From: an uncultured delta proteobacterium
Lineage (GTDB): Bacteria; Desulfobacterota; RBG-13-43-22
Length of the DNA: 64,000 nucleotides
Direction: 5' to 3'
Assembly (NCBI GenBank): GCA_963802945.1
Contig: CAWDKY010000053.1
Location: forward strand, 96,001 to 160,000
Of the stretch, positions 4,117-64,000 are shown in pieces. A model generated the notes under the pieces. That model saw only the letters and a program-made list of their open reading frames with translations. It had not been told where the DNA came from and did no database searches. The position numbers and the translations under genes were made by a program. Each line of letters starts with the position of its first letter. Position 1 is the first letter of the stretch.

Positions 4117-6116
4117 ATGAAGCAAGCCTTTAAACTCATTTCCGAATTCCTGCCCAAGGGAGATCAGCCCCAGGCCATTGAACAATTAATTCAGGGTGTT
4201 GACCAGGGATTGGGTCATCAGGTGTTATTGGGGGTCACCGGTTCAGGGAAGACCTTCACCATGGCCCAGGTAGTAGCCCGGGTTAATAAGCCGACCTTGG
4301 TCCTGGCCCCGAACAAGACCCTGGCCGCCCAGCTTTATGGAGAATTCAAATCCTTTTTCCCGGAAAATGCGGTGGAATATTTCGTCAGTTATTATGACTA
4401 TTACCAACCCGAGGCCTACCTCCCCCAGACCGACACCTACATCGACAAGGACTCTTCCATCAACGAAGCCATCGATAAAATGCGCCATTCGGCCACCCGA
4501 TCATTGTTGACCCGCAGCGATTGCCTGATCGTGGCTAGCGTCTCTTGCATTTACGGCCTGGGCTCCCCGGAAGCCTACCAGGGGATGCTCTTGTCTTTAA
4601 AAGAAAACCAGGAAATAAAAAGAGAAGAAGTTCTCATCCAACTGGTGTCCATGCTATATGAACGAAACGACTTCGACTTCCATCGGGGAACCTTTCGGGT
4701 CCGAGGTGATGTGGTGGAAGTTTTTCCGGCTTACGAAGAAGATCAGGCCCTGCGTATCAACTTCTTCGGCGATTCCATCGAATCCCTTTCCATAATCGAT
4801 CCCTTGCGGGGCAAAAAAATCGAACGATTGGAACAGATTCATATCTTCCCCAACAGCCATTATGTGACTTCAGAGGAGAGAATGGAACAGGCCTTTCAAG
4901 CCATCGAACAAGAACTGGAAGAACGGATTGTTTTTTTTCGCTCCCGGAGATAAATTACTGGAGGCCCAACGCATCGAAGAACGGACCCGGTTCGATCTGG
5001 AAATGATGAAGGAACTTGGCTATTGTCACGGTATAGAAAATTATTCCCGTCATCTCACCGGCCGGCAGCCCGGCCAGCCCCCCCCTACCCTGCTGGAATA
5101 TTTTCCCAGAGACTTTCTCCTTTTTATTGACGAAAGTCATTTGGCTGTACCTCAACTCCAGGGCATGTATCGGGGGGACCGATCCCGCAAACAGACCCTG
5201 GTCGATTACGGCTTCAGGCTCCCTTCGGCCCTGGACAATCGTCCCTTGAATTTCAAAGAATTTGAAAACCTGGTCAATCAGGTCATTTATGTCTCGGCCA
5301 CTCCGGCCGAATATGAGCTGAGAAAATCAGAGGGAGTGGTGGCCGAACAGGTCATCCGGCCCACGGGATTGATGGATCCCCAAATCCAGGTCTTTCCGGC
5401 CGACAATCAGGTGGAGCATCTGAAAAAAGAGATTGACAAAACGGGTCTCCCGCCAGGAGCGGATTCTGGTCACCACCCTGACCAAACGTCTGGCCGAGAA
5501 TCTGACCGAATATTACCAGGAATTAGGGATAAAGGTCCGCTATCTTCATTCCGATATCGATACCCTGGAGCGGATCGAGATCCTTCGGGATTTACGTCTG
5601 GGGGCCTTTGATTGCCTGGTCGGGATCAATCTCCTGCGGGAAGGGCTGGACCTACCCGAAGTCAGCCTGGTGGCCATCCTGGATGCCGACAAGGAAGGTT
5701 TTTTACGCTCCACCCGATCCCTGATCCAGACCTGCGGCCGGGCCTCTCGAAATATTTCCGGAGAAGTCTATTTTTATGCCAACCAGATCACCCGTTCCAT
5801 GCAGGAGGCCATCGATGAAACGGAAAAACGCCGGGCCATTCAAACAGCCTACAATAAAAAAAATAAAATAACACCCACTTCCATAAAAAAATCGATCCAG
5901 GATATCATGGCTTCGGTCTATGAGGCCGATTACGTTACTGTTCCCATTGCCAAGGATAAACAAAAGGAATTTGCCGAGCCCGAGCAGATCCCACAACTGA
6001 TCAAACAACTCAGAAAAAGGATGAAAGATGCGGCTACCCGGCTGGATTTTGAAGAGGCCGCTGAACTGCGGGACCGGATCAAGGTTTTGCAAGAAGAGGA
6101 ATTGCTGTGGAAATGA
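4117..6116 (+). CDS. uvrB: Excinuclease ABC subunit B, two apparent frameshifts (~4945, ~5440)
   Basis: [36 protein letters not shown] and C-terminal FEEAAELRD, spread over three overlapping ORFs. Confidence 0.95.
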
Positions 6117-44016: not shown

Positions 44017-46683
<2,667 letters not shown>

Positions 46684-50013: not shown

Positions 50014-50034
50014 AAAGATTAATTTTATGGACTT

Positions 50035-50082
50035 GCCAGGAAGTTTTTTCTTGCACCTAAGACTCCAGAAAAACTTCCTGGC
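50035..50082. terminator. Inverted repeat between convergent genes
   Basis: GCCAGGAAGTTTTT...AAAAACTTCCTGGC. Confidence 0.55.
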
Positions 50083-50233
50083 TTCCAAGCTGTTTATTTC
50101 TTTTTTATCTTTTTAACACCTCTTTTATTCCCCTGCTTCTTTTCCCTCAACATTTTCGATATGTCTTTTTGTCTTCTTGAAATCTTCTCTTTAGACATTG
50201 CGTTTTCCCCTTGTCATAAAAATTCTTGTATCT

Positions 50234-52921
50234 TTATTTTAAATCCGCCCAGTTGTTTCCCTGAGAAAGTTGCACTACCAACGGAACCCGGAGGGTGAGG
50301 ACCCCTTCCATGATTTCCCGGACCAGAGTCGAAAGACGAATGGATTCCTTTTCCGGGTATTCAAAGACCAGTTCATCGTGGACCTGGAGGAGCATCCGCG
50401 ATTCCATTTTTTCCCGGGTCAGGGTTTCATGAATACGGATCATGGCTATTTTGATCAGATCGGCGGCCGTGCCTTGAATCGGGGTATTGATGGCTGTTCT
50501 TTCGGCAAACTGCCTGACTGCCCGGTTGGAACTGTTGATATCATCCATATGCCGGCGGCGGTTGAACAGGGTGGTCACCATTTGCGTCCGACGTGCCTCG
50601 GCCAGAGTGTCTTCAATGTACTGCTTTACTTTCCCGTACTTTAAAAAATACTGGTCAATCATAACCCGAGCCTCCCGGTTGTTGATCCCCAGTTCCCTGG
50701 AAAGACCGAAGGCACTCATCCCGTAAAGGATGCCGAAATTGATCACCTTGGCCTGACGCCGCATTTCTGAGGTGACTTCCTGAGGTGTGCATCCGAACAA
50801 TTCGGCCGCAGTACGGCTGTGAATGTCCTGTCCCTCTTGAAAGGCTTCAATCAAAGTTTTGTCTTCACTGTAATGAGCCAGGATGCGAAGCTCGATCTGC
50901 GAATAGTCAGCGGAAAGCATCTTCCAGCCCGCCTCCGGGATAAAGGCCTGACGGATCCGCCGGCCTTCTTCAGTCCGGACAGGAATGTTCTGCAGATTGG
51001 GTTCGCTGCTGCTCAAACGCCCGGTAGCGGTAATAGTTTGATTGAAAGAGGTATGCAGACGCCGTGTTTTGGGCAAGATCAGTTTGGGCAGGGCATCGAT
51101 GTAAGTGGATTTGAGTTTGCTCAAGGAGCGATAGTTCCAAACCTCGGCCGCCAGAGGGTGGTGGAGGGACAGATCCTTGAGGACTTCGGCATCGGTGGAA
51201 AAGCCGGTTCGGCCCTTGGTCTTTTTCCCTTGGGGGAGCTTTAGTTTTTCAAAAAGGATATGGCCCAACTGCTGCGGTGAATTGAGGTTGAACCGCTCTC
51301 CGGCCATTTGATAAATCTGTTCTTCCGCTTGGAACAGACGAACATCCATCTCTTTGGAAAAATCAGCCAAGGCCTGGGCATCCAAGCGGACCCCGTGCAT
51401 CTCCATTTCCGCCAGGACGGGCATCAGAGGCATCTCCATTTGTTGAAAGAGCTCATCCAGCCCTTCTGTTTCAAGTAATGGACGCAGTCTTCCTGCAGCG
51501 GCCAAGGTGGATTCAGCGTCTTCAGCCCCATAGGCGATGGCCTCATCAACAGGAACCTCACAAAAATTCTTGGCCTTGGCCCCAGTTCCGACCACTTCTT
51601 TATAAGTGGTCAAACGACGATTTAAATAATCCAGAGCGATCTGATTCAGGCTGTGGGTCCTACGTGAAGGGTTCAGGAGATAAGAGGCGATCATGGTATC
51701 GAAGGCTTTGCCTTTATAAGCCAGCCCGTACCGTTTGAGAATGATCCATTCATACTTGATGTTCTGACCGATCTTTTCTATACCTGGGTCTTCCAGAACC
51801 CCTTTCAATAATTGCAAAACCTCGGATAAAGGAAGCTGAGTCAGGACGCCCAGATAGGTATGGCCCACCGGGATATAAACCGCCCTGCCCTCCTCATAGG
51901 AGAGTCCGATCCCCACGATTTCGGCCTTCATGGGGTCTTCGGAGGTGGTCTCCAGGTCCAGCGAAACCCGTCCGGCCTTTTTGATTTTTTCAACAAAAGA
52001 GACCAGCTCATTCCAATCCGTAATACCTTTGTAGTCCATTAAAACAGGTTTTTTTGCCGCCTCCCCTCCCCCCAGGTCCTCAATAAATTTTTTGAAACCC
52101 AGTTCCTGAAAAAGTGCTTTCAGACGAGGTGTGTCCTTAGGTTGGATTTTGAGATCTGTTGCCGAAAGATCCAGAGGGACCTTGCTGTCCAAAGTGACCA
52201 GGGTGCGGGAAAGCAGGGCCTGTTCTTTGTATTGAAGCAATTTCTCTTTTAATTTGGGTGGGGTGACGGGGGTGGCTTCGTCCAGAATATTTTCTAATGA
52301 TCCATGGGCCTGAATCAGCTTAACGGCGGTTTTTTCCCCGATACCGGGAACACCGGGGACGTTGTCACTGCTGTCTCCAGCCAGGCCCATGATATCTACT
52401 ATTCTTTCCGGCCTGGTCCCGAATCGTTCCCGAACCGTCTCCAAATCAAAGACCTGATCCTTCAAGGTATCCCACATCCGGATATGGGGAGAGATCATCT
52501 GCATCAAATCCTTGTCTCCGGAGACCATGACCACCTCAAACCCTTTAGCCTCAGCCTCTTTGGCCAGCGTGGCGATGATATCATCGGCCTCTACACCCTG
52601 TTTTTCCAGAATCGGCAGGCCATAACAGCGGCTGACTTCTTTGATGTAAGGGATCTGGACGATAAGGTCATCGGGCATGGACGGCCTATGGGCTTTGTAT
52701 TCGTCATACATTTCATGCCGGAAGGTCGGCCCTTTGGCATCAAAGACCATGGCCAGAAAGTCAGGTTTTTCCTGTTCGATGATCTTTCGAATCATCTGAA
52801 CAAATCCGAAGACGGCCTGGGTGGGCATCCCCTTAGAATTGGAAAGGCGGCCTATGGCAAAAAAGGCCCGATAAATATAGGAGCTGCCGTCGATCAGATA
52901 GAGCTTGGGTCGGTCGGTCAT
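50234..52921 (-). CDS. polA: DNA polymerase I
   Basis: LIDGSS..YRAF, EADD, GDSSDNVPG, DLET, TGRLSSSEPNLQNIP, ADYSQIELR, AK.INFG..YG, LLQVHDEL. Confidence 0.98.
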   Translation of the reverse strand: MTDRPKLYLIDGSSYIYRAFFAIGRLSNSKGMPTQAVFGFVQMIRKIIEQEKPDFLAMVFDAKGPTFRHEMYDEYKAHRPSMPDDLIVQIPYIKEVSRCYGLPILEKQGVEADDIIATLAKEAEAKGFEVVMVSGDKDLMQMISPHIRMWDTLKDQVFDLETVRERFGTRPERIVDIMGLAGDSSDNVPGVPGIGEKTAVKLIQAHGSLENILDEATPVTPPKLKEKLLQYKEQALLSRTLVTLDSKVPLDLSATDLKIQPKDTPRLKALFQELGFKKFIEDLGGGEAAKKPVLMDYKGITDWNELVSFVEKIKKAGRVSLDLETTSEDPMKAEIVGIGLSYEEGRAVYIPVGHTYLGVLTQLPLSEVLQLLKGVLEDPGIEKIGQNIKYEWIILKRYGLAYKGKAFDTMIASYLLNPSRRTHSLNQIALDYLNRRLTTYKEVVGTGAKAKNFCEVPVDEAIAYGAEDAESTLAAAGRLRPLLETEGLDELFQQMEMPLMPVLAEMEMHGVRLDAQALADFSKEMDVRLFQAEEQIYQMAGERFNLNSPQQLGHILFEKLKLPQGKKTKGRTGFSTDAEVLKDLSLHHPLAAEVWNYRSLSKLKSTYIDALPKLILPKTRRLHTSFNQTITATGRLSSSEPNLQNIPVRTEEGRRIRQAFIPEAGWKMLSADYSQIELRILAHYSEDKTLIEAFQEGQDIHSRTAAELFGCTPQEVTSEMRRQAKVINFGILYGMSAFGLSRELGINNREARVMIDQYFLKYGKVKQYIEDTLAEARRTQMVTTLFNRRRHMDDINSSNRAVRQFAERTAINTPIQGTAADLIKIAMIRIHETLTREKMESRMLLQVHDELVFEYPEKESIRLSTLVREIMEGVLTLRVPLVVQLSQGNNWADLK

Positions 52922-53254
52922 GAAAATTTTTCCTTTTGAAAAATTCGGCCGGTTCGGGGTCGTCTTTCCAGGTTATGAAATAATTGTATTTTAGCTTTTT
53001 TGGGTTTATAATGAAAGTGTTAAATCTTTAAAGACAGATGAGCAGTGAAGGGGACAATTTGAGCGTAAGTAAAATGGTCAAACCATGTAAAATAACTGAA
53101 CAGCCCAATGATTTCCTTTTTGGCAATCGAAATCTCATGAGGAACAGATTGATGTCTCAAAACAAATTCGTCAACAATACAACCAATGAAGATATCAGGC
53201 TGAGTTAAGATTTCAAAGAGTTTATAAAATTAAACCAATAGTTAAAAAGGAGGA

Positions 53255-54811
53255 ATGGCCATGAATTATCCTGAGACAAAATTTGAAAAAGATTTTGGGC
53301 CCGGCCCTGAGGCCAGAGTGGAACTGAAAAATGGACGTTTTATAGATGTGGTCAATGGACGTTTTTTTGATGCCGGTATCAGCCTCATGATTCAAGGCTC
53401 CAAAATAATATCGCTGGCCAAAACCTCTGAGCCCGGCGGGATCAAGGCCGACTTCACCGTCGATTGCCAGGGAAAGACCGTTATACCGGGATTGTTCAAT
53501 ACCCATTGTCACATCACGATTACTGCCCCGACCACGCTTCCGGACAGGAAGGATATCAAAGGGTTCAAGGCTTACAGCGATAAACAAATCGAGAAGAACA
53601 TGGCCGAATGTCTGATCCACGGCATCACCACCATAAGGGATGCCTATGCCGAAGATCTGCGCCGGACCAGGCTTCTCAGGGATCGGATTGCTAAAGGTGA
53701 AATCCCCGGCCCCCGTTTCTTACAATCCATCGTCGTTGGTCCTCCTGGGGGATATTTACTGGAGAAGGTTGGATTGGTCGCGAGGTGGATGAGGTCGGCT
53801 TTGGGCATCCCTTCTGTCGCCCATACCCTCCCCTACAGCGGTGGGGTTGAATTCCCGATCGAGGCCTCGGAACAACAGGTCAGGGATGCAGTGGACAGGG
53901 CCATCGATGAACGCGGTGCCGAAGTGATCAAAATCGGTGAGCAGAAAGAAAATATGACCAATTATAAGCCCACCTCGACCATCATGACCCAGAATCAAAT
54001 GAATGCCATTGCCGATCAGGCCAGAAAACGGGGCTTGAAATCGACCATTCATCAGGTTTCCATCGCCTCATTCAAAAAGGCCGTGGAGGCCGGGATTTCC
54101 TCCCTGGCCCATCTTCCCAGAGATGGGGTTCTCTCCCAGCAAGATATCGAAGCTTTTTTGTCAAAAGGCTGCTTCAGCGATCCGACCCTGTCAGTACCCT
54201 ATGATGTCAGTTTTAAGGTCAAAGGAGAGCCCTCCTCTGAAGATCCCGATATGAACCTGTTGACAGAGTTCAGAAACCGGGTCCATAGCACTCTGGTGGA
54301 TGAATATTGGATTCCTGAATTCAAAGCAGGGGCGCAAAAACATTACGACAAGGCCAACTCGGGAAAAATGAAGGTCTTTGGGTTCATGCCCATGACCACC
54401 ATGTTTAAATATTATGCCCCAGCTGCTGTTTACGGCGCCAGGAATATCCGTCTTCTGTTTAAAAACAAGGCAAAGATAACCCTCTCAAACGACGGCGGCA
54501 TTCCCCCCTGCACCCCGGCCATGATGCAGCAGGAGATCGATCTTTTCGATTTGTTTCTCAACCAAGCCGCGGGTGAGAAAATCTTTACCGGTGCAGACGC
54601 CATAAAAATAGCCACGATCAACAGTGCAACCTGCCTGGGGCTGGAAAAGAATCTCGGTTCCATTGAAACCGGAAAGACCGCCGATCTGGCCCTGGTGGAC
54701 GGAGACCCATTCCAGGATCCTCATATAGTGGGCAGCCGGGTAGCCGCCCTTTTCAAAGATGGTAGGTTGGTTATCAACAACTGCGGGCTGAAAATGGAGA
54801 AGGCGGGTTAA
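53255..54811 (+). CDS. Amidohydrolase family protein
   Basis: PGLFNTHCH, HGITTIRD, SLAH, NDGG, GSIETGKTADL. Confidence 0.88.
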   Translation: MAMNYPETKFEKDFGPGPEARVELKNGRFIDVVNGRFFDAGISLMIQGSKIISLAKTSEPGGIKADFTVDCQGKTVIPGLFNTHCHITITAPTTLPDRKDIKGFKAYSDKQIEKNMAECLIHGITTIRDAYAEDLRRTRLLRDRIAKGEIPGPRFLQSIVVGPPGGYLLEKVGLVARWMRSALGIPSVAHTLPYSGGVEFPIEASEQQVRDAVDRAIDERGAEVIKIGEQKENMTNYKPTSTIMTQNQMNAIADQARKRGLKSTIHQVSIASFKKAVEAGISSLAHLPRDGVLSQQDIEAFLSKGCFSDPTLSVPYDVSFKVKGEPSSEDPDMNLLTEFRNRVHSTLVDEYWIPEFKAGAQKHYDKANSGKMKVFGFMPMTTMFKYYAPAAVYGARNIRLLFKNKAKITLSNDGGIPPCTPAMMQQEIDLFDLFLNQAAGEKIFTGADAIKIATINSATCLGLEKNLGSIETGKTADLALVDGDPFQDPHIVGSRVAALFKDGRLVINNCGLKMEKAG

Positions 54812-54841
54812 AGGTTTAGTTTCAAGAAAGTCTTACTGGTT

Positions 54842-54882
54842 CTCAAAATGGGCTACGGATTATCATCCGCACCCCATTTTGA
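54842..54882. terminator. Hairpin after the amidohydrolase gene
   Basis: CTCAAAATGGG..CGGAT-tatc-ATCCG..CCCATTTTGAG. Confidence 0.55.
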
Positions 54883-54898
54883 GGGCGCGAAGCGTCCT

Positions 54899-54954
54899 CG
54901 ACAACAACGAGTTCACTGTGATCTTTAGCGATCCGGCGGAACGATTCGTTGGGC
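54899..54954 (-). other. attC site 1
   Basis: Minus strand GCCCAAC-N5-GTTCC...GATC/GATC...TGAAC-N5-GTTGTCG, just downstream of the methyltransferase stop. Confidence 0.65.
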
Positions 54955-54972
54955 TTTTCTGGTGTGTGCTGC

Positions 54973-55737
54973 TCATTTCTCTCCCCGTATCATCGCCATA
55001 GTTCCCAAAATGAAAGGTACCTTCAACAGGGGTGGGATAAAGGGCGAGTTTCTGGTTTGAATGAGCTCCACTTTGGTTGTTCCCCAGCTCTTGATAGTGG
55101 TGACTAACGCATCTGGATCGCCATACATCTTCTTGATGAGGAATTCGTCTTGAAAAGCGAACTTGCCACCTTTCTTGAGAACCCGCAAAGCTTCACGAAT
55201 AACCTCACGCTTGTCTCTGACACCGCCGACCTCGTGGAAGACAAAATTGCTCACGGCCGCATCGAAGTATTCGTCAGGGAATGGCAATGATGCGGCGCTG
55301 CCTTTCTGGAAGGTTACGCGGTCACTGACTCCTTCAATCGCGGCGTTGCGTTCGCAGACCTTCTTCGAGTAATCCCACTTCTTTCCCCAATAGTCTACCC
55401 CGAAGACTTGTGCCCTACCGTGCTTCTGAGCCAGTTTGATGGCCAGGGCTCCGTTCCCGCACCCTATGTCCACGGCTTTGCCTTCTCCATTCCAGTCCAA
55501 ATGCTCTAAAACGAGCCGCCAAATGGATTCTTGCACATTTCCTGCTTTAGGGGAAAGCTTGAAGCGAACATACCATAGAAAGGCGGCGACCAGCACGAAG
55601 AATGCAGCCAGAATCAACAGGAAAGACCACATGAGACTCGATGCCAGGAACAGGAGTGCTATGGCGAGAGGAACATAAATCATCGGTTTTGGAGTCCAAT
55701 TGCCATAGTCTGGATTCTCTCTGATCTGTCCGTTCAT
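54973..55737 (-). CDS. Class I SAM methyltransferase with N-terminal TM hairpin (gene cassette)
   Basis: VDIGCGNG, GVDYW, SLPFPDEYFD, FHEV, RVLKKGG. Confidence 0.88.
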   Translation of the reverse strand: MNGQIRENPDYGNWTPKPMIYVPLAIALLFLASSLMWSFLLILAAFFVLVAAFLWYVRFKLSPKAGNVQESIWRLVLEHLDWNGEGKAVDIGCGNGALAIKLAQKHGRAQVFGVDYWGKKWDYSKKVCERNAAIEGVSDRVTFQKGSAASLPFPDEYFDAAVSNFVFHEVGGVRDKREVIREALRVLKKGGKFAFQDEFLIKKMYGDPDALVTTIKSWGTTKVELIQTRNSPFIPPLLKVPFILGTMAMIRGEK

Positions 55738-55768
55738 ATGCTCCAGTCCTTCATGTTTGCTTGTTGTA

Positions 55769-55886
55769 ACCCAACATAGAGTTCAGTGCACGCCGCCCCG
55801 AATCAGAACGAAGGTAGCAGTTCATTTGGACTGATCCCGCGCTTTAGAACCAATCTCAGGCGTTGCACTGCAACGACTTGTTAGGT
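55769..55886 (-). other. attC site 2
   Basis: Minus strand ACCTAAC-aagtc-GTTGCAGTGCAACGCC...GGCGTGCACTGAAC-tctat-GTTGGGT: RYYYAAC/GTTRRRY core with extrahelical bases. Confidence 0.85.
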
Positions 55887-57012
55887 GTTTCACTACAAGT
55901 CCATCCAGCCAGCTGATCATCTCATTTACGGCGAGAAGATGGTTTCCAACTTGGCAGTGCTGTTCCCCGCCTTCTGTTTCTGTAAACAGCCTCGCTACTA
56001 CTGAGGAAGCGCCTGTTAATGCTTCCTTTTGCCTATAATAGTGATTCGTAGGGATGTAATGATCCTTTTCCCCTGCCAGCAGAAGCACGTCCTGTTTGAC
56101 CAAGTGCGATATGGCTTTCATCGTGTGCAGAGACAATGCTTGGTAGAAGTCAATTGGCATCCGTGTCCCCGTTATGTACATCCCGTGGGCGACCGCCCAA
56201 TCAAGCAAAAGACTCCTTTTTCGAAGCCGAGCTACGAGGGCATTTGCAAGTCGTTGGGCATTGAGCGATATTAACAATTTGAAGATATTTCGGATAGGCT
56301 GCGGCATTGGGCGGGTCATTACTTCGAGTCCATCAAAACATACGTCATAGGCTATCACCCGGCTTATGCGAGGTTCGAAAGCGGCAGCTCGCAGAGCAAG
56401 ATAGCCACCCCATGAGATGCCTAGGAGCGTTACGTCAACCAGACTGAAATAGTCCAGAATACTTTTGACGGGCTTTTCCCATTCATGAGTAAATTTCAAC
56501 CCCCGCTTGAGCGCGGTGCCCTGCCCGGGACCTTCGAATAGAATCACCGAATAGCCAGCCTTTGGAATCTGCTTGACTGTCAAATAGAACTCTTCCATGA
56601 AGGAGTCATATCCACCGTGGGCAACAATGATGGCCTTTTCCGTTTGCGAACGAAGGTACATCACTGGGAGTGTACTCCCCTGATAAGGAACCTCATGCCT
56701 AGTAAAATTATCCCCTTCCGTGGCTCTGTTAAAGCACTTGAGAAATGATTTATAGCAGGTCAGTTTTTCCTTATGATCTTCTTTCAAGAAGAACTCGGCC
56801 ATGCGATAGGCATAGGAGGCATTCATGAAACGGCCTTCGGCCTCTGCTTCATGAGCCAAACTCAGCCAACCGACATACCAATCATCATAGTCGCGGACCG
56901 TGGCAAGCATGTCTTTGATATCATGAATCCGGCCTGCAGACTCGCCGTATGTGAGCACACGGTTGGCTTGGAAATTCATCCCTACGTCCGGATGAAGATG
57001 GTAGTATGGCAA
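55822..57012 (-). CDS. Alpha/beta hydrolase (gene cassette)
   Basis: HGGYDS..EE, FEGPGQG, GISWGG, GEKDH, HCQ. Reads into attC 2. Confidence 0.88.
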   Translation of the reverse strand: MPYYHLHPDVGMNFQANRVLTYGESAGRIHDIKDMLATVRDYDDWYVGWLSLAHEAEAEGRFMNASYAYRMAEFFLKEDHKEKLTCYKSFLKCFNRATEGDNFTRHEVPYQGSTLPVMYLRSQTEKAIIVAHGGYDSFMEEFYLTVKQIPKAGYSVILFEGPGQGTALKRGLKFTHEWEKPVKSILDYFSLVDVTLLGISWGGYLALRAAAFEPRISRVIAYDVCFDGLEVMTRPMPQPIRNIFKLLISLNAQRLANALVARLRKRSLLLDWAVAHGMYITGTRMPIDFYQALSLHTMKAISHLVKQDVLLLAGEKDHYIPTNHYYRQKEALTGASSVVARLFTETEGGEQHCQVGNHLLAVNEMISWLDGLVVKHLTSRCSATPEIGSKARDQSK

Positions 57013-57034
57013 CAGAACTTCCTTTCTTTGAAAC

Positions 57035-57126
57035 CTCTAATGCGGCGTTGACCCGTGGCCCACAGCTTGCGGGGCCTTTAGACCCAGGCAAGCAAGTGAC
57101 ATCGGTGTCCAATGGCCTGGTTGGCG
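57035..57126 (-). other. attC site 3 (degenerate, R' GTT changed to ATT)
   Basis: Minus strand CGCCAAC...TTGGAC...GTCAA..ATTAGAG. Confidence 0.55.
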
Positions 57127-57240
57127 AACGCCTGCGGCGGAGCCGGCCGGGACATGGAACCGATAGGGGCAACGCCCAATTGGCGACGCCGCAGGCGGCG
57201 CCAACAAGTTATCCTAAAGTTTTTCTGTACAACACTACAA
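57127..57240 (-). other. ORF-less ~80-bp cassette and candidate attI-like site
   Basis: GTTGGCG at 57205-57199 is the exact complement of the attC 3 R'' CGCCAAC. Internal IR GCCTGCGGCG/CGCCGCAGGC; preceded by AT-rich ...GGATAACTT-GTT. Confidence 0.45.
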
Positions 57241-57568
57241 TTTAAAATCTAAATTGGGGAAGGCAACCCTGATCATTTTTCTGTTTGTGATAACTTATGG
57301 TTTACCCAACCCTTCAAATGCTTTGTAACCTATTATAAATGATAAATATTCTCTTGCCAAATTATTTTTATTGCCAAAATTATTGATAATGCAATCAAGA
57401 AACCGGGGCTTCTTGGCAAGCGGCATTATTCAGCCAAAACCCGCGGAAAATAAATAATGGTTGACATTTTATAAGAACAGCATAAAAATTAAATATTATT
57501 TAATCATAATTGAGTTATGGCTTTGCGATAAAAACAACCCTTAACAAGATTTCTATGGGAGGACAGTC

Positions 57569-60052
57569 ATGAGTTTAGCCGAACGAACAATAGGTCCAAA
57601 GGTTTCTCCGCCACCTTCGCGGGTGACCAAGGAGATGAGGAAAAGTATTGTTTACCAAAACAAGAGCAGTAGAGGCTCGGGAAGGATCGAAGCCGCCAAA
57701 GGGAATGTGACCCGGGTTAAGGAAGAGGGGCGCAATCCTTATCGTGATGAGGTTAAATTGTGCATTGAACGGGCGCGGTTGATTACCGAAGGGTATCAAG
57801 CCTCAGAAGGAGAGCCCATGGTCCTCCGGCGGGCCAAGGCCATGGCCCACTTTCTGGACAATCGAACCCTCTACATCTTACCTAACGAACGTATCGTCGG
57901 AAATGTCTCCAGTGAACCTTGCTCCATGATCACCTTTCCTGAAAAATGGAGCAGTTGGCTGGACAAGGCCATCGACACCGAGTACAGCCAATTAGTTACC
58001 GATGAAAAACGGGAGGAACTCCACCGGATCCATAAATACTGGAAAGGGAAATCGGTTCACGGCATGGAGCGCAATCTCTTGCCCAAGGACATCCTCTACT
58101 ACTGGTTTTATCCCAACCAGGGTGTCTTCTTGTGGCGCCATGGCGGCCATGTGGGTTCGCCGAATTACACCAGAATTTTCCAAACCGGCTTGAAGGGGAT
58201 CATCGCCGACGCCAAAAACAAGCTGGATGAAATCAAATCCGATCCGGAACTCTATTTGCATACCCGGGAATTTCTCAAGAAAAAAGCCTTTTATGAGGCG
58301 GTGATTATTTCTTCCGAAGCGGTGATTCGTCAGGGCAAAAGGTTTTCAGAGCTTGCCAGGCAAGAGGCGGCCAAGGCCACGGATCCCAAGAGAAAGGCGG
58401 AGCTGGAGGAAATGGCCGAGGTTTGCGCCTGGGTGCCGGAAAATCAACCCCGTACCCTTCATGAGGCCTTGCAGTTCTATTGGTTTATCAATCTGGTGGT
58501 CCGTGTGCTCGACATTCAGACCTCCGGTAATGGCGACCGGGTGGACCAGATCTTTTATCCCTTTTACAAAAAGGATAAGGAAGATGGCCTGTTGACTTAC
58601 GAGCAGGCCCAGGAACTGGTGGAGCACCTGCTGCTTAAATTCAATGAAGAAGGGGCTTTGATTCCCCCCTCTCACCCCTCGGCCGGGCCTTTGATCACCC
58701 GCGTGGTAACCATAGGAGGGGTGGATACCGAAGGTGTTGACGCCACCAATGAAATGACCTATATCATCATGGATGCCAAAGACGAGGTGGGTTTCAATCA
58801 ACCGGCCCTGGCCGTCAGGCTCCATCCGCAAACACCCCAAAGTTTGTATCGAAAAATCATCTCCTCATTGCTTAAACAACCCGGTGTTTATTCCTTTTTT
58901 AATGACAATATGATGATCCCCTTCCTGATGAACCTCGGCCTCCCCCTGGAAGATGCCCGGGATTACGGGACCGACGGCTGTATGCGATGGATCGTACCCG
59001 GCAAGGCCATGTGTCAAAGGGCCTTGGGAGGCACCTTTGTCCTTCCCAAGTGCTTTGAATACGCCTTGTACCAGGGAGTGGATAAATTCAGCAATAAACA
59101 GGTCGGGGCCAAAACCACGGACCCCTTGACCTGGACCTCGGTGGATGATGCCATGCAGGCCTACCTGGAGCAGGTAAAATTCTTTTTACACAAACTGGTG
59201 ACCATCTATAATCTCGTCGATGCCTTGGAAGAAGAATGGTTGCCCCAGCCCTTTCTCTCGGCTGTGGTGGACGGCTGTCTGGAAGCCGGGAAAGACTGTC
59301 GCGAGTTCAAATATTATCATAATACCATCATTCAACCAGTCGGCCAGGTCACGATCATCAATTCCCTGGCGGCCATTAAGAAGCTGGTGTTTGACGAGAA
59401 AAAGGTTAAGATGGCCGACCTTCTTGAAGCCTTGAAAAACAATTGGGAAGGCAGGGAAGATCTGCGTCAGCAATTTATTAATGACGCACCCAAATGGGGC
59501 AATGATGAAGATTATGTGGACCTCATCGGCCGGGAATTCTACAAGAAGACCAACCAGGCCTTTAAAAGCTTTAAAAATATCTGGGGCTGGCCCTTCAATG
59601 AAGACGGGACCGGGGCTTCTTCCTATTACGATTACAGCGGGATGACCGGGGCCACACCCGACGGCCGGAAGGATCTGGATTTGTTTAATGACGGAACCGT
59701 ATCTCCGGTCATCGGCACGGATAAGAAAGGTCCTCTGGCTACCATGAAATCCATCAGCAAGTTAGACCACGCCGGAACTTTCACCCACCTGTTCAACCAA
59801 AAATTCACTCCTCAAGAGCTGAAGAAGAACAACGGGGCCAATTTCATCTCCCTGCTGAAGACCTTTGTTGATCTTGGCATTCACCACACCCAATTTAATG
59901 TTATCGACCGGGAGACGTTGCTCGATGCTCAGATGCATCCGGATCAATATTCCGATCTGGTGGTCAGGACTGCCGGGCTGGCGGCTTATTTTGTGGATAT
60001 GACCAAAGGAGTGCAGGACCAGATCATTGAGAGAACAGAATTAAGTCTTTAA
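57569..60052 (+). CDS. Glycyl radical enzyme of unknown class
   Basis: ERARLITE, LRRAKA, GRxDQ-like GDRVDQ, PKWGND, GATPDGR, HTQFNV. Gly loop LVVRTAGLAAYF, Cys loop DGCMRW. Confidence 0.9.
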   Translation: MSLAERTIGPKVSPPPSRVTKEMRKSIVYQNKSSRGSGRIEAAKGNVTRVKEEGRNPYRDEVKLCIERARLITEGYQASEGEPMVLRRAKAMAHFLDNRTLYILPNERIVGNVSSEPCSMITFPEKWSSWLDKAIDTEYSQLVTDEKREELHRIHKYWKGKSVHGMERNLLPKDILYYWFYPNQGVFLWRHGGHVGSPNYTRIFQTGLKGIIADAKNKLDEIKSDPELYLHTREFLKKKAFYEAVIISSEAVIRQGKRFSELARQEAAKATDPKRKAELEEMAEVCAWVPENQPRTLHEALQFYWFINLVVRVLDIQTSGNGDRVDQIFYPFYKKDKEDGLLTYEQAQELVEHLLLKFNEEGALIPPSHPSAGPLITRVVTIGGVDTEGVDATNEMTYIIMDAKDEVGFNQPALAVRLHPQTPQSLYRKIISSLLKQPGVYSFFNDNMMIPFLMNLGLPLEDARDYGTDGCMRWIVPGKAMCQRALGGTFVLPKCFEYALYQGVDKFSNKQVGAKTTDPLTWTSVDDAMQAYLEQVKFFLHKLVTIYNLVDALEEEWLPQPFLSAVVDGCLEAGKDCREFKYYHNTIIQPVGQVTIINSLAAIKKLVFDEKKVKMADLLEALKNNWEGREDLRQQFINDAPKWGNDEDYVDLIGREFYKKTNQAFKSFKNIWGWPFNEDGTGASSYYDYSGMTGATPDGRKDLDLFNDGTVSPVIGTDKKGPLATMKSISKLDHAGTFTHLFNQKFTPQELKKNNGANFISLLKTFVDLGIHHTQFNVIDRETLLDAQMHPDQYSDLVVRTAGLAAYFVDMTKGVQDQIIERTELSL

Positions 60053-60065
60053 GTCGAGAATAATT

Positions 60066-60115
60066 CACCCCCACCCCTGCCCTCCCCCCTCGGAGGGGGA
60101 GGGTGCGGAAGGGGG
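60066..60115. repeat. GC-rich palindromic intergenic element
   Basis: CACCCTGCCCTCCCCCCT-cgg-AGGGGGAGGGTG. Confidence 0.5.
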
Positions 60116-60205
60116 AATTTTAAAACTCCGTGGTTCCCTCCTTAAACAATCATTTTGAGTTTAATAAAGCATTCCGTTCTTCATGTTAAACAGCAAGGAG
60201 ATGCA

Positions 60206-61006
60206 ATGGAATTCGATAAAATGTTTTTAAAGGAAGAAGAAGGTATTGCCACCTTGACCTTGAACAATCCGGACAAGCTCAATGCCATGTCCACCGAGAT
60301 GTGGAATGATTTTCGGACGATCATCGACCACATCCAGGGGAATCTTGAAATTAAAGTACTGGTGATCACCGGGTCCGGCCGAGGATTTTGTTCAGGATCA
60401 GATGTAGGAGCCAGATTGGCGGCCAATATCGAAGGGCGCGGGCCGAAAAAGACCCAGGCCGACCTGCTGGAAGGAACCGGTTACGCAGCTAAGGTGATCA
60501 GGGATCTGGAAATCCCCATCATTGCGGCGATTAACGGTGTGGCTGCTGGTGCGGGCCTTTCCATGGCCTTGCTTAGTGATATCCGCATTGCCTCGGAAAC
60601 CGCCCGTTTTGGGGCCATTTGGGTCCGGGTCGGTTTGATCGGCGACCTGGGAGCCACTTTACTGCTGCCGCAACTTATAGGACCGGATAAGGCCTTTGAG
60701 ATGCTGACCACCGGGATCATGATTGATGCCCGGGAGGCGGAACGGATCGGACTAGTTACCCGTGTGGTTCCTTCCGAGGCCTTGTTGACCTCCGCCTATG
60801 AACTGGCCGGGAAACTGGCCAAAGGGCCGGCCTTATCGATCAAGTTAATGAAAAAGGCTATCTATAAAGGGCTTCGGCACAACGACCTTCAAGCCCAACT
60901 GGATTTTGAAAGCTTTGCCCAGGGGGTATGCCGTCAATCCGAAGATCATCGCGAAGGCGTCAGGGCCTTTATGGAAAAAAGAGTAGCCCAGTTCAAAGGG
61001 CTGTAA
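60206..61006 (+). CDS. Crotonase-superfamily protein (PaaG-like)
   Basis: LNNPDKLNA, FCSGSD, AAINGVAAGAG, GLIGDLG, EGVRAFMEKR. Confidence 0.9.
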   Translation: MEFDKMFLKEEEGIATLTLNNPDKLNAMSTEMWNDFRTIIDHIQGNLEIKVLVITGSGRGFCSGSDVGARLAANIEGRGPKKTQADLLEGTGYAAKVIRDLEIPIIAAINGVAAGAGLSMALLSDIRIASETARFGAIWVRVGLIGDLGATLLLPQLIGPDKAFEMLTTGIMIDAREAERIGLVTRVVPSEALLTSAYELAGKLAKGPALSIKLMKKAIYKGLRHNDLQAQLDFESFAQGVCRQSEDHREGVRAFMEKRVAQFKGL

Positions 61007-61050
61007 GACATTTATCCTATTAAGGACAAAAAAGAAGGTTATCATTTGGG

Positions 61051-61239
61051 GTCATTCCGGTGAAGAGACTGTGTCGTAATTATATTTTTGTCATTCCGTG
61101 CAAGCGAAGCGCGACACGGAATCCAGTATTTTCATTAAGTTCTGGATGACGGCTTTGATGGCGCTGTCCGCTATTACGACACAGTCTCGAAGGCCGGAAT
61201 CCAGAGGTTTTCCTGGACTTCGGCTTCCGCCGGAGTGAC
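61051..61239. repeat. REP-like palindrome with MITE insert (61065..61188) and GAA target duplication
   Basis: GTCATTCCGGT-GAA-[GAGACTGTGTCGTAAT...ATTACGACACAGTCTC]-GAA-GGCCGGAATCCAG. Confidence 0.8.
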
Positions 61240-61294
61240 GTGTTTGGGACCTTTGATAAACCTGTGAACTGAATTGGTTAGATCTAAAAAATTG

Positions 61295-62224
61295 ATGGAC
61301 AACAATAAACCGGAGCTTCGGTCGGACCGGGGATCGATTTTTCTTATTCAGAGTTTCAGCACTAATGATGGTCCGGGAATAAGGACCACGGTCTTTACCA
61401 AAGGGTGTCCCCTTAAGTGCCTGTGGTGCCACAATCCTGAATCCGCCAACAGCTTCCCGGAACTGATGATCCATGATGACCGCTGTATCGGCTGCCTCAA
61501 ATGTCTTGAAGTCTGTCCGAAAAAGGCCATTACCTTTCATCCGGAAAAAGGCAGGAGGATCATTCGGAATCGTTGTAATCGGTGCCTGGATTGCGTTGCC
61601 GTTTGCCCGGCCAAATCTTTGACTGCGGTGGGTGAAATCATGACCGTTGAGCAAGTGATGGCCGAGATCAAAAAAGACGAGCTTTTTATCCACCGCTCCG
61701 ACGGCGGCGTGACTATTTCCGGCGGAGAACCTTTGGCCCAAGCCCCATTTGTCCTGGAACTTTTGAAGGCCTGCCGAGAGCGGGGGTTACATACCGCTTT
61801 GGACACCAGCGGTTATGCACCCTGGTCCACGTTGGAAGAGATACTTAATTATGTCGACCTGGTTTTATTTGATATCAAACATATGGATCCAAAGGTCCAT
61901 ACACAGGTCACCGGGGTCAGCAATGCCTTGCCTCTTTCCAACTTGCGGCGCATCCCGCGGAATATCCCCATCTGGCTGAGGCTGCCCCTCATCCCTGGCT
62001 ATAATGATTCCTTAGAGAATCTGGATAAAGTGGGGGCCTTAAGCCGGGAAATAGCTGCGGAAAAAATTTCTCTTCTGCCCTTTAATCGCTATGGGGACGG
62101 AAAATATCTGAATTTGGGCCGGAAGATACCACTGCCGGGGATCGAAATGTTTAGCCGGGGAAAGATTGAGGAAATCAAAGTGGTTCTGGAAAAGTCGGGG
62201 GTACCGGTAACCATTGGAGAATAG
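61295..62224 (+). CDS. Glycyl-radical activating enzyme (radical SAM with ferredoxin insert)
   Basis: DGPGIRTTVF.KGCPLKCLWCHNPE, two CxxCxxCxxxCP motifs, GGVTISGGEP, DTSG, DIK. Confidence 0.95.
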   Translation: MDNNKPELRSDRGSIFLIQSFSTNDGPGIRTTVFTKGCPLKCLWCHNPESANSFPELMIHDDRCIGCLKCLEVCPKKAITFHPEKGRRIIRNRCNRCLDCVAVCPAKSLTAVGEIMTVEQVMAEIKKDELFIHRSDGGVTISGGEPLAQAPFVLELLKACRERGLHTALDTSGYAPWSTLEEILNYVDLVLFDIKHMDPKVHTQVTGVSNALPLSNLRRIPRNIPIWLRLPLIPGYNDSLENLDKVGALSREIAAEKISLLPFNRYGDGKYLNLGRKIPLPGIEMFSRGKIEEIKVVLEKSGVPVTIGE

Positions 62225-62233
62225 AAAAACATA

Positions 62234-62320
62234 GACTGAAGACCGAAGACTAAAGGCTGAAAGAACTGCGAAGAAAACTTTTTTCATTTTTTCCTTCAGC
62301 CTTCAGCCTTAACACCTAAA
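62234..62320. repeat. Inverted 7-mer repeat cluster
   Basis: gactgaa-gaccgaa-gactaaa-ggctgaa ... ccttcag-ccttcag-ccttaac. Confidence 0.55.
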
Positions 62321-62336
62321 AAACGGAGGTAAGATA

Positions 62337-63131
62337 ATGGCAACAGACCAAGTTGTTCTCGTAGAAACCAAAAACAGGATTTGCGTATTGACCTTTAATC
62401 AACCGGATAAACTGAACGCCATGAACGATGTCATGGCCGTGGCCTTCAGTTCCGCCATTGACCAAATCAAGAAGAATTCGGAACCCAAAGTGTTGATCCT
62501 TACCGGTGCCGGCCGGTCTTTCAGCGCCGGCGGCAACCTGGATAAGATGAGGGGCAATGTGGGCTCAAACCCGGCCAAACGCAAAAAAGAGTCTTTCGCC
62601 TTTTATAATTCTTTTCTGCGTCTGATGGATCTGGAAATTCCGACCATCGCTGCCATCAACGGCCATGCCATCGGCGCCGGGGCCTGCGTCAGCCTGGCCT
62701 GCGACATGAGAATAGCGGCCACCAACAGCAAGATCGGTTTCACCTTCGCCAAGATCGGGCTTCATCCCGGAATGGGCGCGGAATACTTCCTTACCAGATT
62801 GATCGGCCGGGCCAGGACCTTTGAACTTTTGATGACCGGGGATATCCTCTCCGCCGAAGAGGCCTTTCGTATTGGGCTGGTCAATCATCTCAGCCCGCCG
62901 GAAAAATTGATGGATCATGCCCTCGAACTGGCTGGAAAAATCGCCGCCATGCCGGTTTTACCCATCAGGATGCTTAAGGAATCCATCGACGCCGCCACCA
63001 GAAACACCCTGGCTGAAACCTTGCACCGGGAAGCGACTTATCAGGCCTTATGTTATATGACCACGGACATTATCGAAGGAATCGATTCGACCAAAGAAAA
63101 AAGGCCAGCAAAATTCAAAGATGAATATTAA
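62337..63131 (+). CDS. Crotonase-superfamily protein
   Basis: FNQPDKLNA, FSAGGN, AAINGHAIGAG, GLHPGMG. Confidence 0.9.
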   Translation: MATDQVVLVETKNRICVLTFNQPDKLNAMNDVMAVAFSSAIDQIKKNSEPKVLILTGAGRSFSAGGNLDKMRGNVGSNPAKRKKESFAFYNSFLRLMDLEIPTIAAINGHAIGAGACVSLACDMRIAATNSKIGFTFAKIGLHPGMGAEYFLTRLIGRARTFELLMTGDILSAEEAFRIGLVNHLSPPEKLMDHALELAGKIAAMPVLPIRMLKESIDAATRNTLAETLHREATYQALCYMTTDIIEGIDSTKEKRPAKFKDEY

Positions 63132-63160
63132 TCGAAGAGGTTTGACAGGGCTGTGCAGAT

Positions 63161-64000
63161 TTAAGGCATTTTACACCGCTTTTTTAATGCCGCCACGTCA
63201 TCCGGAGCCAGCTCCAGTGCCTTGGACTTAATCAGCCGGTACATAACAGCATCCTCGTTCTGACTGTGGTCCAGGCCCAGGACATGGCCGAATTCATGGG
63301 CAAGCACGCGGACCAGCCGGTAGTCGTTATCAAACTGAAAAATGGTAATGGACTGCCGGCCATTCTGGTTTTCATAGTGGCCTTCACAGAACTTAGGCCC
63401 AAGGGCCTGGCCCAGACTCTGATGGTTGCCCAAATCCAGGTTGTAATCGGATGCGATTTCATTAATGACCACCACCAAGCTGTTGATCGTATCCGCCAGT
63501 CTTTTAAGTTCCTCCTGCTGTCCCTGCAGATGATCACGCAGTGCATTCAATTCATTTTTTTCATTCAACAGCCGCGAGTGGATGCTTTCAGAAACTACTC
63601 CGCTTCGGTTCCAGGATTCGGCTTCCCTATTGAAAGTGTTCATCCGGGCATTGAAGGCATTAAAGTCAGCAGCCAAGGATATATTTTTTTGTTCATATTC
63701 TGCTTTTAAATTTTCACAGTCTGTTTTTAATTCCTCATAGGAATCTTTGGAACGGTCAATTTTATAATGGAGCTTTTTTAAGTTGTCCGTTGCCTGCTGC
63801 CTGTAGTCATAAACCAGGTTGACCTCGACGACACCTTCAAGATCTTCTCGAAAAAGTTCCCGGGAAAAGGGTTTCCCCCACATGGCCGCCGCCATATTCA
63901 CGGCTGTTCTAAATTCCTGACGGGTTAACCCGAACCTTTCATCCATTTTACCGATACGAAAAGTTATTGGTTCCTGACAGGGCCTTGGCATTCGGAAATA
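63161..64000 (-). CDS. Matrixin-family metalloprotease with coiled-coil insert (5' end outside the window)
   Basis: HEFGHVLGLDH...AVMY (metzincin motif and Met-turn). Open to the window edge. Confidence 0.85.
   Translation of the reverse strand, partial: YFRMPRPCQEPITFRIGKMDERFGLTRQEFRTAVNMAAAMWGKPFSRELFREDLEGVVEVNLVYDYRQQATDNLKKLHYKIDRSKDSYEELKTDCENLKAEYEQKNISLAADFNAFNARMNTFNREAESWNRSGVVSESIHSRLLNEKNELNALRDHLQGQQEELKRLADTINSLVVVINEIASDYNLDLGNHQSLGQALGPKFCEGHYENQNGRQSITIFQFDNDYRLVRVLAHEFGHVLGLDHSQNEDAVMYRLIKSKALELAPDDVAALKKRCKMP

What the first reader, a model, noticed from the sequence alone, without database searches (positions are those of the whole stretch)
57569..63131. Glycyl radical enzyme with non-canonical active-site loops in an operon with its activase and two crotonases
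Seen: Cys loop DGCMRW, which has no adjacent Cys-Cys as in PFL, no Glu at Cys+2 as in GCVEP eliminases, and differs from the CMSP of fumarate-adding enzymes. Gly loop RTAGL replaces RVxG(Y/F). No small beta/gamma subunit genes and no microcompartment genes are nearby. Inference: an uncharacterised GRE class. Arg at Cys+2 suggests an anionic substrate, and the flanking crotonases suggest CoA-thioester chemistry.
Basis: partly seen in the sequence, partly recalled or inferred. Interest (0 to 1): 0.75.

Follow-up and report, generated by a model that had tools for sequence, protein, structure and literature searches.

The report
Orphan radical enzyme, hydrocarbon-activator sister lineage
This intact four-gene unit encodes an oxygen-sensitive radical enzyme and its activator from a large unstudied lineage most closely related to the enzymes anaerobes use to attach hydrocarbons to fumarate; it likely makes or breaks a carbon-carbon bond on a bulky organic acid that then enters fatty-acid-type breakdown, but its substrate is untested.

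Summary
The operon and motifs are real. The Cys loop C-x-R-W is invariant in 121 of 121 family members. The odd Gly loop is only drift: 50 of 121 have RVAG(Y/F). The GRE passes no NCBIfam cut-off and lacks CxE and Cys-Cys. New here: its lineage is the sister of the X-succinate synthase (XSS) clade (UFBoot/SH-aLRT 100/99). AU tests reject grouping it with the eliminases and reject nesting it with the CMSP enzymes. Invariant Arg484 likely equals fumarate-binding Arg508 of BssA (MAFFT disagreed). Fumarate-side positions are conserved (0.94) and toluene-side positions vary (0.66). There are no small subunits. Crotonase 1 is PaaG-like (single catalytic Asp, no hydratase Glu) and tracks the GRE: 7 of 7 versus 0 of 7 genus genomes, plus distant cases. 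Crotonase 2 is linked only locally. Best reading, about 40%: subunit-free XSS-like C-C chemistry feeding beta-oxidation. No structure model could be run. This scan flagged the same family, and its XSS kinship, on other DNA before.

The parts
57569..60052 (+). Glycyl radical enzyme, 827 aa. Cys471 (DGCMRW), Arg473, Arg484 (RALGG), Gln589, Asp679/Thr681 (EDGT), Gly803 (RTAGL). CMRW family, sister lineage of X-succinate synthases
60206..61006 (+). Crotonase 1 (266 aa), PaaG-like. Asp147 sits at the PaaG Asp136 position; Ser119 and Trp139 replace the two hydratase Glu; likely a delta3-delta2 enoyl-CoA isomerase. Tightest partner of the GRE
61060..61250 (.). Palindromic repeat element between crotonase 1 and the activase, 47 matches in the own genome (REP/MITE-like, inferred); not part of the system
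61295..62224 (+). GRE activating enzyme (radical SAM CxxxCxxC at 38, two CxxCxxCxxxC ferredoxin motifs at 64 and 94, GGEP at 143); passes TIGR02494
62337..63131 (+). Crotonase 2 (264 aa) with none of the three canonical acids (Cys117, Phe137, Gly145 instead); conserved Tyr90, Cys117, Cys122, Glu149 in its family; linked to the GRE only within the genus
57461..57489 (+). Sigma70-like site TTGACA-17-AAAAAT upstream of the GRE (consensus match only; 10 such sites against 5.7 expected in the region)

Best explanation
The GRE is an intact member of an uncharacterised sister lineage of the X-succinate synthases and likely performs similar radical C-C bond chemistry without small subunits: the Cys471 thiyl radical would take a hydrogen from a bulky, probably unsaturated organic substrate and add it across a carboxylate-anchored alkene such as fumarate, and the product would enter beta-oxidation as a CoA ester. 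Shown: intact GRE and activase, tree position, invariant Cys-Met-Arg-Trp and Arg484, absence of CxE and of small subunits, co-occurrence with a PaaG-type crotonase. Inferred: Arg484 (with the Cys-loop oxyanion hole, and perhaps Arg473) holds the acceptor carboxylates; Asp679 positions an Arg; the variable, roomy second pocket holds the other substrate; crotonase 1 shifts a delta3 double bond into beta-oxidation register; CoA activation is done by enzymes encoded elsewhere.
For: Tree: lineage 100/100, XSS-containing clade 100/99, union 100/99 in the careful 25-row IQ-TREE; same topology in the 46-row quick tree and the 221-row FastTree. AU test rejects lineage+eliminases, p=0.001. hhalign puts Arg484 on BssA Arg508, Met472 on Met494, Gly487/488 on the Gly511-513 loop, Gln589 on Asn615 (BssA identity and numbering). 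Arg at Cys+13 is in 69 of 87 lineage members against 4 of 120 other GREs; Glu at Cys+2 is in 0 of 87 against 79 of 120. PMC12358834 passages: BSS and MASS share only the Arg salt bridge and the Cys-loop oxyanion hole for fumarate. Across 121 members, majority-residue frequency is 0.94 at 10 fumarate-side positions, 0.66 at 7 toluene-side positions and 0.77 overall; four tandem paralogs in L015 keep CMRW and Arg484 but differ in the beta2-beta3 loop. 12 of 16 pocket positions are smaller than in BssA. An acyl-CoA gene lies within 4.5 kb of 16 of 19 CMRW loci (12 of 15 without four same-genus loci), against 32% of random windows in the own genome. Neighbours include CoA-transferases, ligases, acyl-CoA dehydrogenases, thiolase/OB-fold pairs, carboxyltransferases and a mutase.
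Against: The Arg484=Arg508 match depends on the alignment: MAFFT L-INS-i left Arg508 against a gap, and the fast MAFFT run set Arg484 against Glu510. No structure model was obtained. Tyr197, Ser199, Trp613 and Gln707 of BSS are replaced. There are no beta/gamma subunits, and BSS-beta is needed for turnover (PMC13450708 section 4.2). The operon has no CoA-transferase, ligase or acyl-CoA dehydrogenase, which an X-succinate would need next; its only partners are crotonases. The lineage is outside the CMSP clade (AU p=0.002). Arg473 and Asp679 have no counterpart in any XSS. The toluene-side positions Ile384/Phe385 fall in an indel-rich loop. Neighbour seeds came from the same loci and the baseline is one genome. 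Best sequence hits are eliminases, not BSS. PAD, IAD, AAD and MasD were not in the trees.
Confidence: 0.4

Rival explanations
1. The GRE acts inside the beta-oxidation route, on an unsaturated or carboxylated acyl-CoA (or its free diacid). It would catalyse an intramolecular radical rearrangement, either a B12-independent carbon-skeleton shift or a ring opening. Crotonase 1 supplies or removes the enoyl-CoA isomer, and carboxyltransferases or the acid-less crotonase 2 decarboxylate the product.
For: The operon's only partners are crotonases that need CoA esters. Crotonase 1 tracks the GRE. Carboxyltransferase pairs lie directly upstream in L017 and L018, and one lies opposite in L010. The pocket is roomy, the N-terminus has conserved basic residues K32, R35, R39, R59, and two Arg could hold a diacid.
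Against: No class in PMC13450708 section 5 takes an acyl-CoA substrate. In Table 2 of PMC8473912, GREs replace B12 eliminases but not B12 carbon-skeleton mutases. K32 is also in the XSS clade. Crotonase 2 is linked only in the genus and did not list methylmalonyl-CoA decarboxylase among its best 25 NCBIfam hits.
Confidence: 0.27
2. A hydrogen-atom-transfer decarboxylase of aryl- or vinyl-acetic acids, like PAD, IAD or AAD, with Arg473/Arg484 binding the carboxylate and Asp679 or His191 as proton donor.
For: AAD lacks Glu at Cys+2 (GCVLH in 7e7l) and has no small subunit; IAD uses an Arg for its carboxylate. HPAD branches next to the XSS+lineage clade (91/91).
Against: It scores 364 and 293 bits against IAD and HPAD cut-offs of 1100 and 1150. 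Decarboxylation releases a hydrocarbon and would not explain beta-oxidation neighbours (inference). PAD, IAD and AAD were not in the tree.
Confidence: 0.13
3. A 1,2-eliminase or isomerase with a rebuilt pocket, in which Asp679 (at the sulfonate-binding Arg position of IseG/IslA) or His191 replaces the CxE glutamate and the two Arg bind a carboxylate or sulfonate.
For: Best sequence hits are glycerol dehydratase and HypD. Asp679 aligns with the Arg of the isethionate lyase 5ymr. C-S lyases use two Arg.
Against: All described eliminases and isomerases keep CxE, and 0 of 87 lineage members do. AU test rejects grouping with eliminases.
Confidence: 0.12
4. The crotonases are hitchhikers in a crotonase-rich genome and say nothing about the GRE's substrate.
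For: The genome has about 43 crotonases. Only 5 of 15 non-genus CMRW loci have one within 4.5 kb. An unrelated amidohydrolase also tracks the GRE in the genus, 5 of 7 versus 0 of 7, so shared ancestry can mimic linkage.
Against: In G407 the best crotonase-1 match of 31 candidates lies 2 kb from the GRE. L017 has a 51% orthologue in the same run of genes. 10 of 120 GRE hits share an exact contig length with a crotonase-1 hit, against 0.47 expected.
Confidence: 0.08

Closest known systems
X-succinate synthases / GRE hydroalkylases (BssA/TutD PDB 4PKC/5BWE, MasD 9O8U, NMSS, HBSS, IBSS, LSS)
   Same: Sister clade. Cys-Met loop, likely the fumarate Arg (484/508), the Gly-Gly loop after beta6, an amide at Asn615, no CxE, activase with ferredoxin domain, beta-oxidation neighbours.
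   Different: CMRW rather than CMSP; extra Arg473 and Asp679; smaller pocket residues; no beta/gamma/delta subunits, BssF or adjacent BssE; about 31% identity; not nested with the CMSP enzymes.
GRE 1,2-eliminases and isomerases (glycerol dehydratase 1R8W, HypD, CutC, IseG/IslA, HpsG, YbiW, PflD)
   Same: Best sequence scores (467 bits to 1R8W); single-subunit architecture.
   Different: No CxE glutamate; other pocket residues differ; grouping rejected by AU test; below all cut-offs.
GRE decarboxylases (HPAD, IAD, PAD, AAD)
   Same: Some lack Glu at Cys+2 or a small subunit, and IAD uses an Arg for the carboxylate.
   Different: Far below the HPAD and IAD cut-offs; HPAD lies outside the XSS+lineage clade.
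PaaG (1,2-epoxyphenylacetyl-CoA / delta3-delta2 enoyl-CoA isomerase, PDB 6SL9/6SLA), for crotonase 1
   Same: Top PDB hit; keeps the Asp that is Asn in the D136N variant; no hydratase glutamates.
   Different: 203 bits against a cut-off of 345; anaerobic context without paaABCE nearby; crotonase 2 lacks even this Asp.

Membership tests
PFL-like GRE superfamily | PFL-like barrel plus C-terminal glycine radical domain with Gly, and a Cys loop | tested here: met
   PF02901 and PF01228 over cut-off; Cys471, Gly803
PFL-like GRE superfamily | Cognate radical SAM activase | tested here: met
   TIGR02494 330 bits against 174; motifs intact; orthologue in the same 7 of 14 genus genomes as the GRE
PFL-like GRE superfamily | Glycyl radical formed (EPR) | not testable with these tools
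   needs protein
X-succinate synthases | Fumarate-binding Arg (BSS Arg508 / MASS Arg492) | tested here: inconclusive
   hhalign aligns Arg484 with Arg508 and it is invariant; two MAFFT runs placed it differently; no structure model
X-succinate synthases | CMSP Cys loop | tested here: not met
   CMRW; Cys-Met shared, Ser-Pro replaced by Arg-Trp
X-succinate synthases | Small beta/gamma Fe-S subunits | tested here: not met
   none in the operon gaps, none by tblastn in the genome or in the other loci
X-succinate synthases | Phylogenetic nesting among CMSP enzymes | tested here: not met
   sister, not nested; AU p=0.002; only one BssA and one other CMSP enzyme were sampled
X-succinate synthases | Adds a C-H substrate to fumarate | not testable with these tools
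   needs assay
GRE 1,2-eliminases and isomerases | CxE motif | tested here: not met
   Arg473 in 121 of 121; motif defined in PMC13450708 sections 5.6-5.7
GRE 1,2-eliminases and isomerases | Groups with GD/HypD/CutC/HpsG/YbiW/PflD | tested here: not met
   AU p=0.001
Formate lyases (PFL, TdcE) | Two adjacent Cys on the Cys loop | tested here: not met
   GCM; 98 bits against 994
GRE decarboxylases | HPAD/IAD profile cut-off and Glu at Cys+2 | tested here: not met
GRE decarboxylases | Tree position relative to PAD, IAD, AAD | not tested
   no sequences of these three were held; only HPAD was in the tree
Aminoacyl radical enzymes | Ala/Ser/Thr in place of the radical Gly | tested here: not met
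   Gly803 in 120 of 121, one truncated
PaaG-type isomerase (crotonase 1) | Single catalytic Asp at position 136, no hydratase Glu pair | tested here: met
   Asp147; Asp in 98 of 120 homologues, 11 not parsed
PaaG-type isomerase (crotonase 1) | TIGR02280 equivalog cut-off | tested here: not met
   203 against 345 bits

The most novel reading that the evidence does not exclude
The family defines an eighth GRE class: a single-subunit relative of the hydroalkylases that acts directly on carboxylated or unsaturated acyl-CoA esters, for example as the first B12-independent glycyl-radical carbon-skeleton mutase or ring opener, and removes beta-oxidation blocks in sediment Desulfobacterota and Chloroflexota.
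Probability: 0.25. Interest if true: 0.88.

Novelty: new variant of a known kind. Interest (0 to 1): 0.62.

Why it matters
X-succinate synthases are the only known enzymes that form sp3-sp3 bonds by radical hydroalkylation, and their small subunits and hard-to-express activases limit their study (PMC13450708 sections 4.2 and 7). A large single-subunit sister lineage with its own adjacent activase is a direct route to new C-C chemistry and to the origin of fumarate addition. It is widespread and expanded in sediment anaerobes, where public records mislabel it as PFL or choline lyase. Its reaction could explain how these organisms break down organic matter that beta-oxidation alone cannot. This operon gives a compact test set: GRE, activase and a co-inherited isomerase.

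Tried and rejected
ESM Atlas gave only generic GRE clusters and held no model. No RNA holder was listed; this is no evidence on expression. Rfam found nothing in 50000-64000. The careful 46-row tree did not finish (quick tree only), so a 25-row set was used. A search of 331 genomes in the class of G404 found close members in only 3. A BssD profile search of 301 genomes gave one usable BssA locus. Rejected: Gly loop as a special feature; four-gene order as family-wide; crotonase 2 as a general partner (1 of 120 contig-length matches); crotonases as ordinary hydratases; microcompartment; XSS membership; eliminase membership. No complex was folded, since no binding is claimed. Literature: ten searches listed no paper describing this family. 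The motif search returned 2,189 papers, of which the 15 listed were irrelevant. Most subscription papers and bioRxiv supplements are not covered.
Full report
OBSERVATION. The window holds GRE (57569-60052, 827 aa), crotonase 1 (60206-61006), activase (61295-62224) and crotonase 2 (62337-63131), all on the + strand. The GRE has both Pfam domains. It stays below every NCBIfam cut-off, including the broad PFL2-3 subfamily (567 against 678 bits). The best solved relative is glycerol dehydratase 1R8W (467 bits). The activase is intact. The genome has no BMC shell gene and no BssB, BssC or BssF homologue. No small Cys-rich ORF lies in the operon gaps, whereas the same scan found both subunits beside a real BssA.

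FAMILY. One search found 2074 hits among 8000 scored candidates; the best 120 (57-96% identity) plus the query were aligned. C-x-R-W is in 121 of 121. The Gly loop varies: 50 of 121 have canonical RVAG(Y/F), and RTAGL is in 23, so it is drift. In 76 of these sequences, invariant pocket-region residues include His191, Cys471, Arg473, Trp474, Arg484, Gln589 and Asp679-Gly680-Thr681. Record titles name Thermodesulfobacteriota/Deltaproteobacteria and Chloroflexota/Dehalococcoidia. Further loci and 150 cluster representatives show a wider lineage with loops CMRW, CMSW, CMVP, CMYP and CVY that shares an Arg at Cys+13 and a DG(S/T) motif.

PLACE IN THE SUPERFAMILY. A BssA was taken from L123 (1571 bits to 4PKC; numbering offset fixed). 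HypD, CutC, HpsG and HPAD references pass NCBIfam cut-offs. GD, YbiW and PFL came from annotated plasmids; the GD label rests on its Cys-loop match to 1R8W. In FastTree on 221 rows, quick IQ-TREE on 46 rows and careful IQ-TREE LG+C20 on 25 rows, the lineage is one clade (100/100). It is sister to a clade holding BssA, a second CMSP enzyme and divergent environmental relatives (100/99), and the union is 100/99. AU tests reject lineage+eliminases (p=0.001) and lineage nested with the CMSP enzymes (p=0.002). Both groups were named after seeing the tree. MasD, NmsA, PAD, IAD and AAD were not sampled, and HPAD is a long branch.

POCKET, BY ALIGNMENT ONLY. hhalign maps Arg484 to BssA Arg508, Met472 to Met494, Gly487/488 to the Gly511-513 loop, Gln589 to Asn615, Thr681 to Gln707, Asp679 to position 705 and Arg473 to Ser495. 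Two MAFFT runs did not reproduce the Arg484-Arg508 column, so this is likely, not proven. Passages of PMC12358834 say BSS and MASS share only this Arg and the Cys-loop oxyanion hole for fumarate; PMC4848970 passages list the other contacts. Arg at Cys+13 occurs in 69 of 87 lineage members and 4 of 120 other GREs. Glu at Cys+2 occurs in 0 of 87 and 79 of 120. Asp679 is in 90% against 3%. Ten fumarate-side positions average 0.94 majority frequency, seven toluene-side positions 0.66 and the whole protein 0.77. Four tandem paralogs in L015 keep CMRW and Arg484 but differ in the beta2-beta3 loop. Twelve of 16 mapped positions are smaller than in BssA, three are larger and one is the same (volumes recalled). 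I read this as a constant anion anchor plus a variable, roomy second site (inference). Against it: Tyr197, Ser199, Trp613 and Gln707 are not kept, and Arg473 and Asp679 have no XSS counterpart.

CROTONASES. Crotonase 1 is closest to PaaG and keeps the Asp that is Asn in 6SLA, the D136N variant (PMC7497051 passages). It lacks both hydratase Glu, which points to a delta3-delta2 isomerase (inference). Crotonase 2 has none of the three acids. Among 14 genus genomes, the GRE, crotonase 1 and the activase orthologue occur in the same 7 and in none of the other 7. Crotonase 2 is in 4 of those 7 and 0 of the others; in G105 it sits with the activase about 13 kb downstream. Kin are not independent: an amidohydrolase shows 5 of 7 against 0 of 7 too. 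Beyond the genus, the best of 31 crotonase candidates in G407 lies 2 kb from the GRE, and L017 carries a 51% orthologue in the run crotonase-carboxyltransferase-carboxyltransferase-GRE-activase. Ten of 120 GRE hits share an exact contig length with one of 119 crotonase-1 hits, against 0.47 expected, including GREs at 74-75% and 58-59% identity (indirect). The same test gives 1 match for crotonase 2. So crotonase 1 is a real but not universal partner, and the four-gene order is local.

WIDER CONTEXT. An acyl-CoA gene lies within 4.5 kb of 16 of 19 CMRW loci with at least 5 kb of flank (12 of 15 without four same-genus loci; crotonase 9 of 19, or 5 of 15). The baseline is 32% and 8% for random windows of the own genome; other lineage members give 12 of 18. 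Twenty-nine duplicate or near-duplicate loci were left out, and short loci were not counted. Seeds came from these loci and the baseline is one genome, so the size of the enrichment is soft. One search scanned 88 neighbours chosen by me, mostly from the 161 listed. It found acyl-CoA dehydrogenases, CoA-transferases and ligases, thiolase/OB-fold pairs, MaoC proteins, carboxyltransferases, a flavin oxidoreductase and a B12 mutase.

MECHANISM. Shown: intact GRE and activase, sister position to XSS, no CxE, no subunits, acyl-CoA context. Inferred: Gly803 radical to Cys471 thiyl, H-abstraction from a bulky, probably allylic substrate, addition to fumarate or a close unsaturated acid held by Arg484, then CoA activation elsewhere and a double-bond shift by crotonase 1 (0.40). 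The main rival is an intramolecular rearrangement of an acyl-CoA or diacid (0.27). It fits the operon content better but has no precedent in PMC13450708 section 5 or Table 2 of PMC8473912. Decarboxylase (0.13), non-CxE eliminase (0.12) and hitchhiking crotonases (0.08) follow.

LITERATURE SEEN. PMC13450708: outline and sections 4.2, 4.3, 5 and 7. It lists seven classes and says whole clades lack validation; none matches by its stated motifs. Passages only: PMC12358834, PMC4848970, PMC12583861, PMC7701123, PMC7497051, PMC4498308, PMC8473912. Ten searches listed no description of this family. No supplements were read, and clade definitions in supplements or subscription papers could have been missed.

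EARLIER SCAN NOTES. One search, made after my tree and residue mapping, showed the same family and the XSS kinship noted on other genomes. These are repeats, not support. What this locus adds is the co-inherited PaaG-type crotonase and the conserved-versus-variable split of the pocket.

VERDICT. Real, not an artefact, and not a member of any characterised class. It works most likely like an X-succinate synthase but is not one. Interest 0.62.

Noticed in passing
window 61060-61250: Palindromic repeat between crotonase 1 and the activase, with 47 matches in the own genome; REP/MITE-like.
   Followed up: partly
window 54973-57170: Methyltransferase and alpha/beta hydrolase genes on the - strand, flanked by weak hairpins (z -1.8 and -2.5) with attC-like ends by eye. 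The first hairpin is single-copy in the genome. They sit between the amidohydrolase and the GRE, which are adjacent in L001.
   Followed up: partly
window 53255-54811: Amidohydrolase present in 5 of 7 GRE-positive and 0 of 7 GRE-negative genus genomes; adjacent to the GRE only in L001.
   Followed up: partly
window 44017-46683 and 47362-50013: Two tandem fusions of a betaine-type aldehyde dehydrogenase with an iron alcohol dehydrogenase.
   Followed up: no
G000:C24:71718-75240: A second lineage member (CVY loop, 42% identity) with its own activase in the same genome; two further GREs lie on C32 and C34.
   Followed up: partly
L015:3033-12944: Four tandem CMRW paralogs with no activase in the 18 kb locus. 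G407 holds 23 GRE matches.
   Followed up: partly
P0142, P0143, P0153, P0156, P0172, P0201: Divergent environmental GREs that branch with BssA inside the XSS-containing clade, without a full CMSP/RSEGG signature in most.
   Followed up: no
window 62337-63131 and its 117 homologues: A crotonase family with no canonical acid but conserved Tyr90, Cys117, Cys122 and Glu149; reaction unknown.
   Followed up: partly
window 2741-3634, 1813-2757 and 4117-6116: An acyl-CoA dehydrogenase and uvrB each appear split over several ORFs, possibly assembly frameshifts.
   Followed up: no
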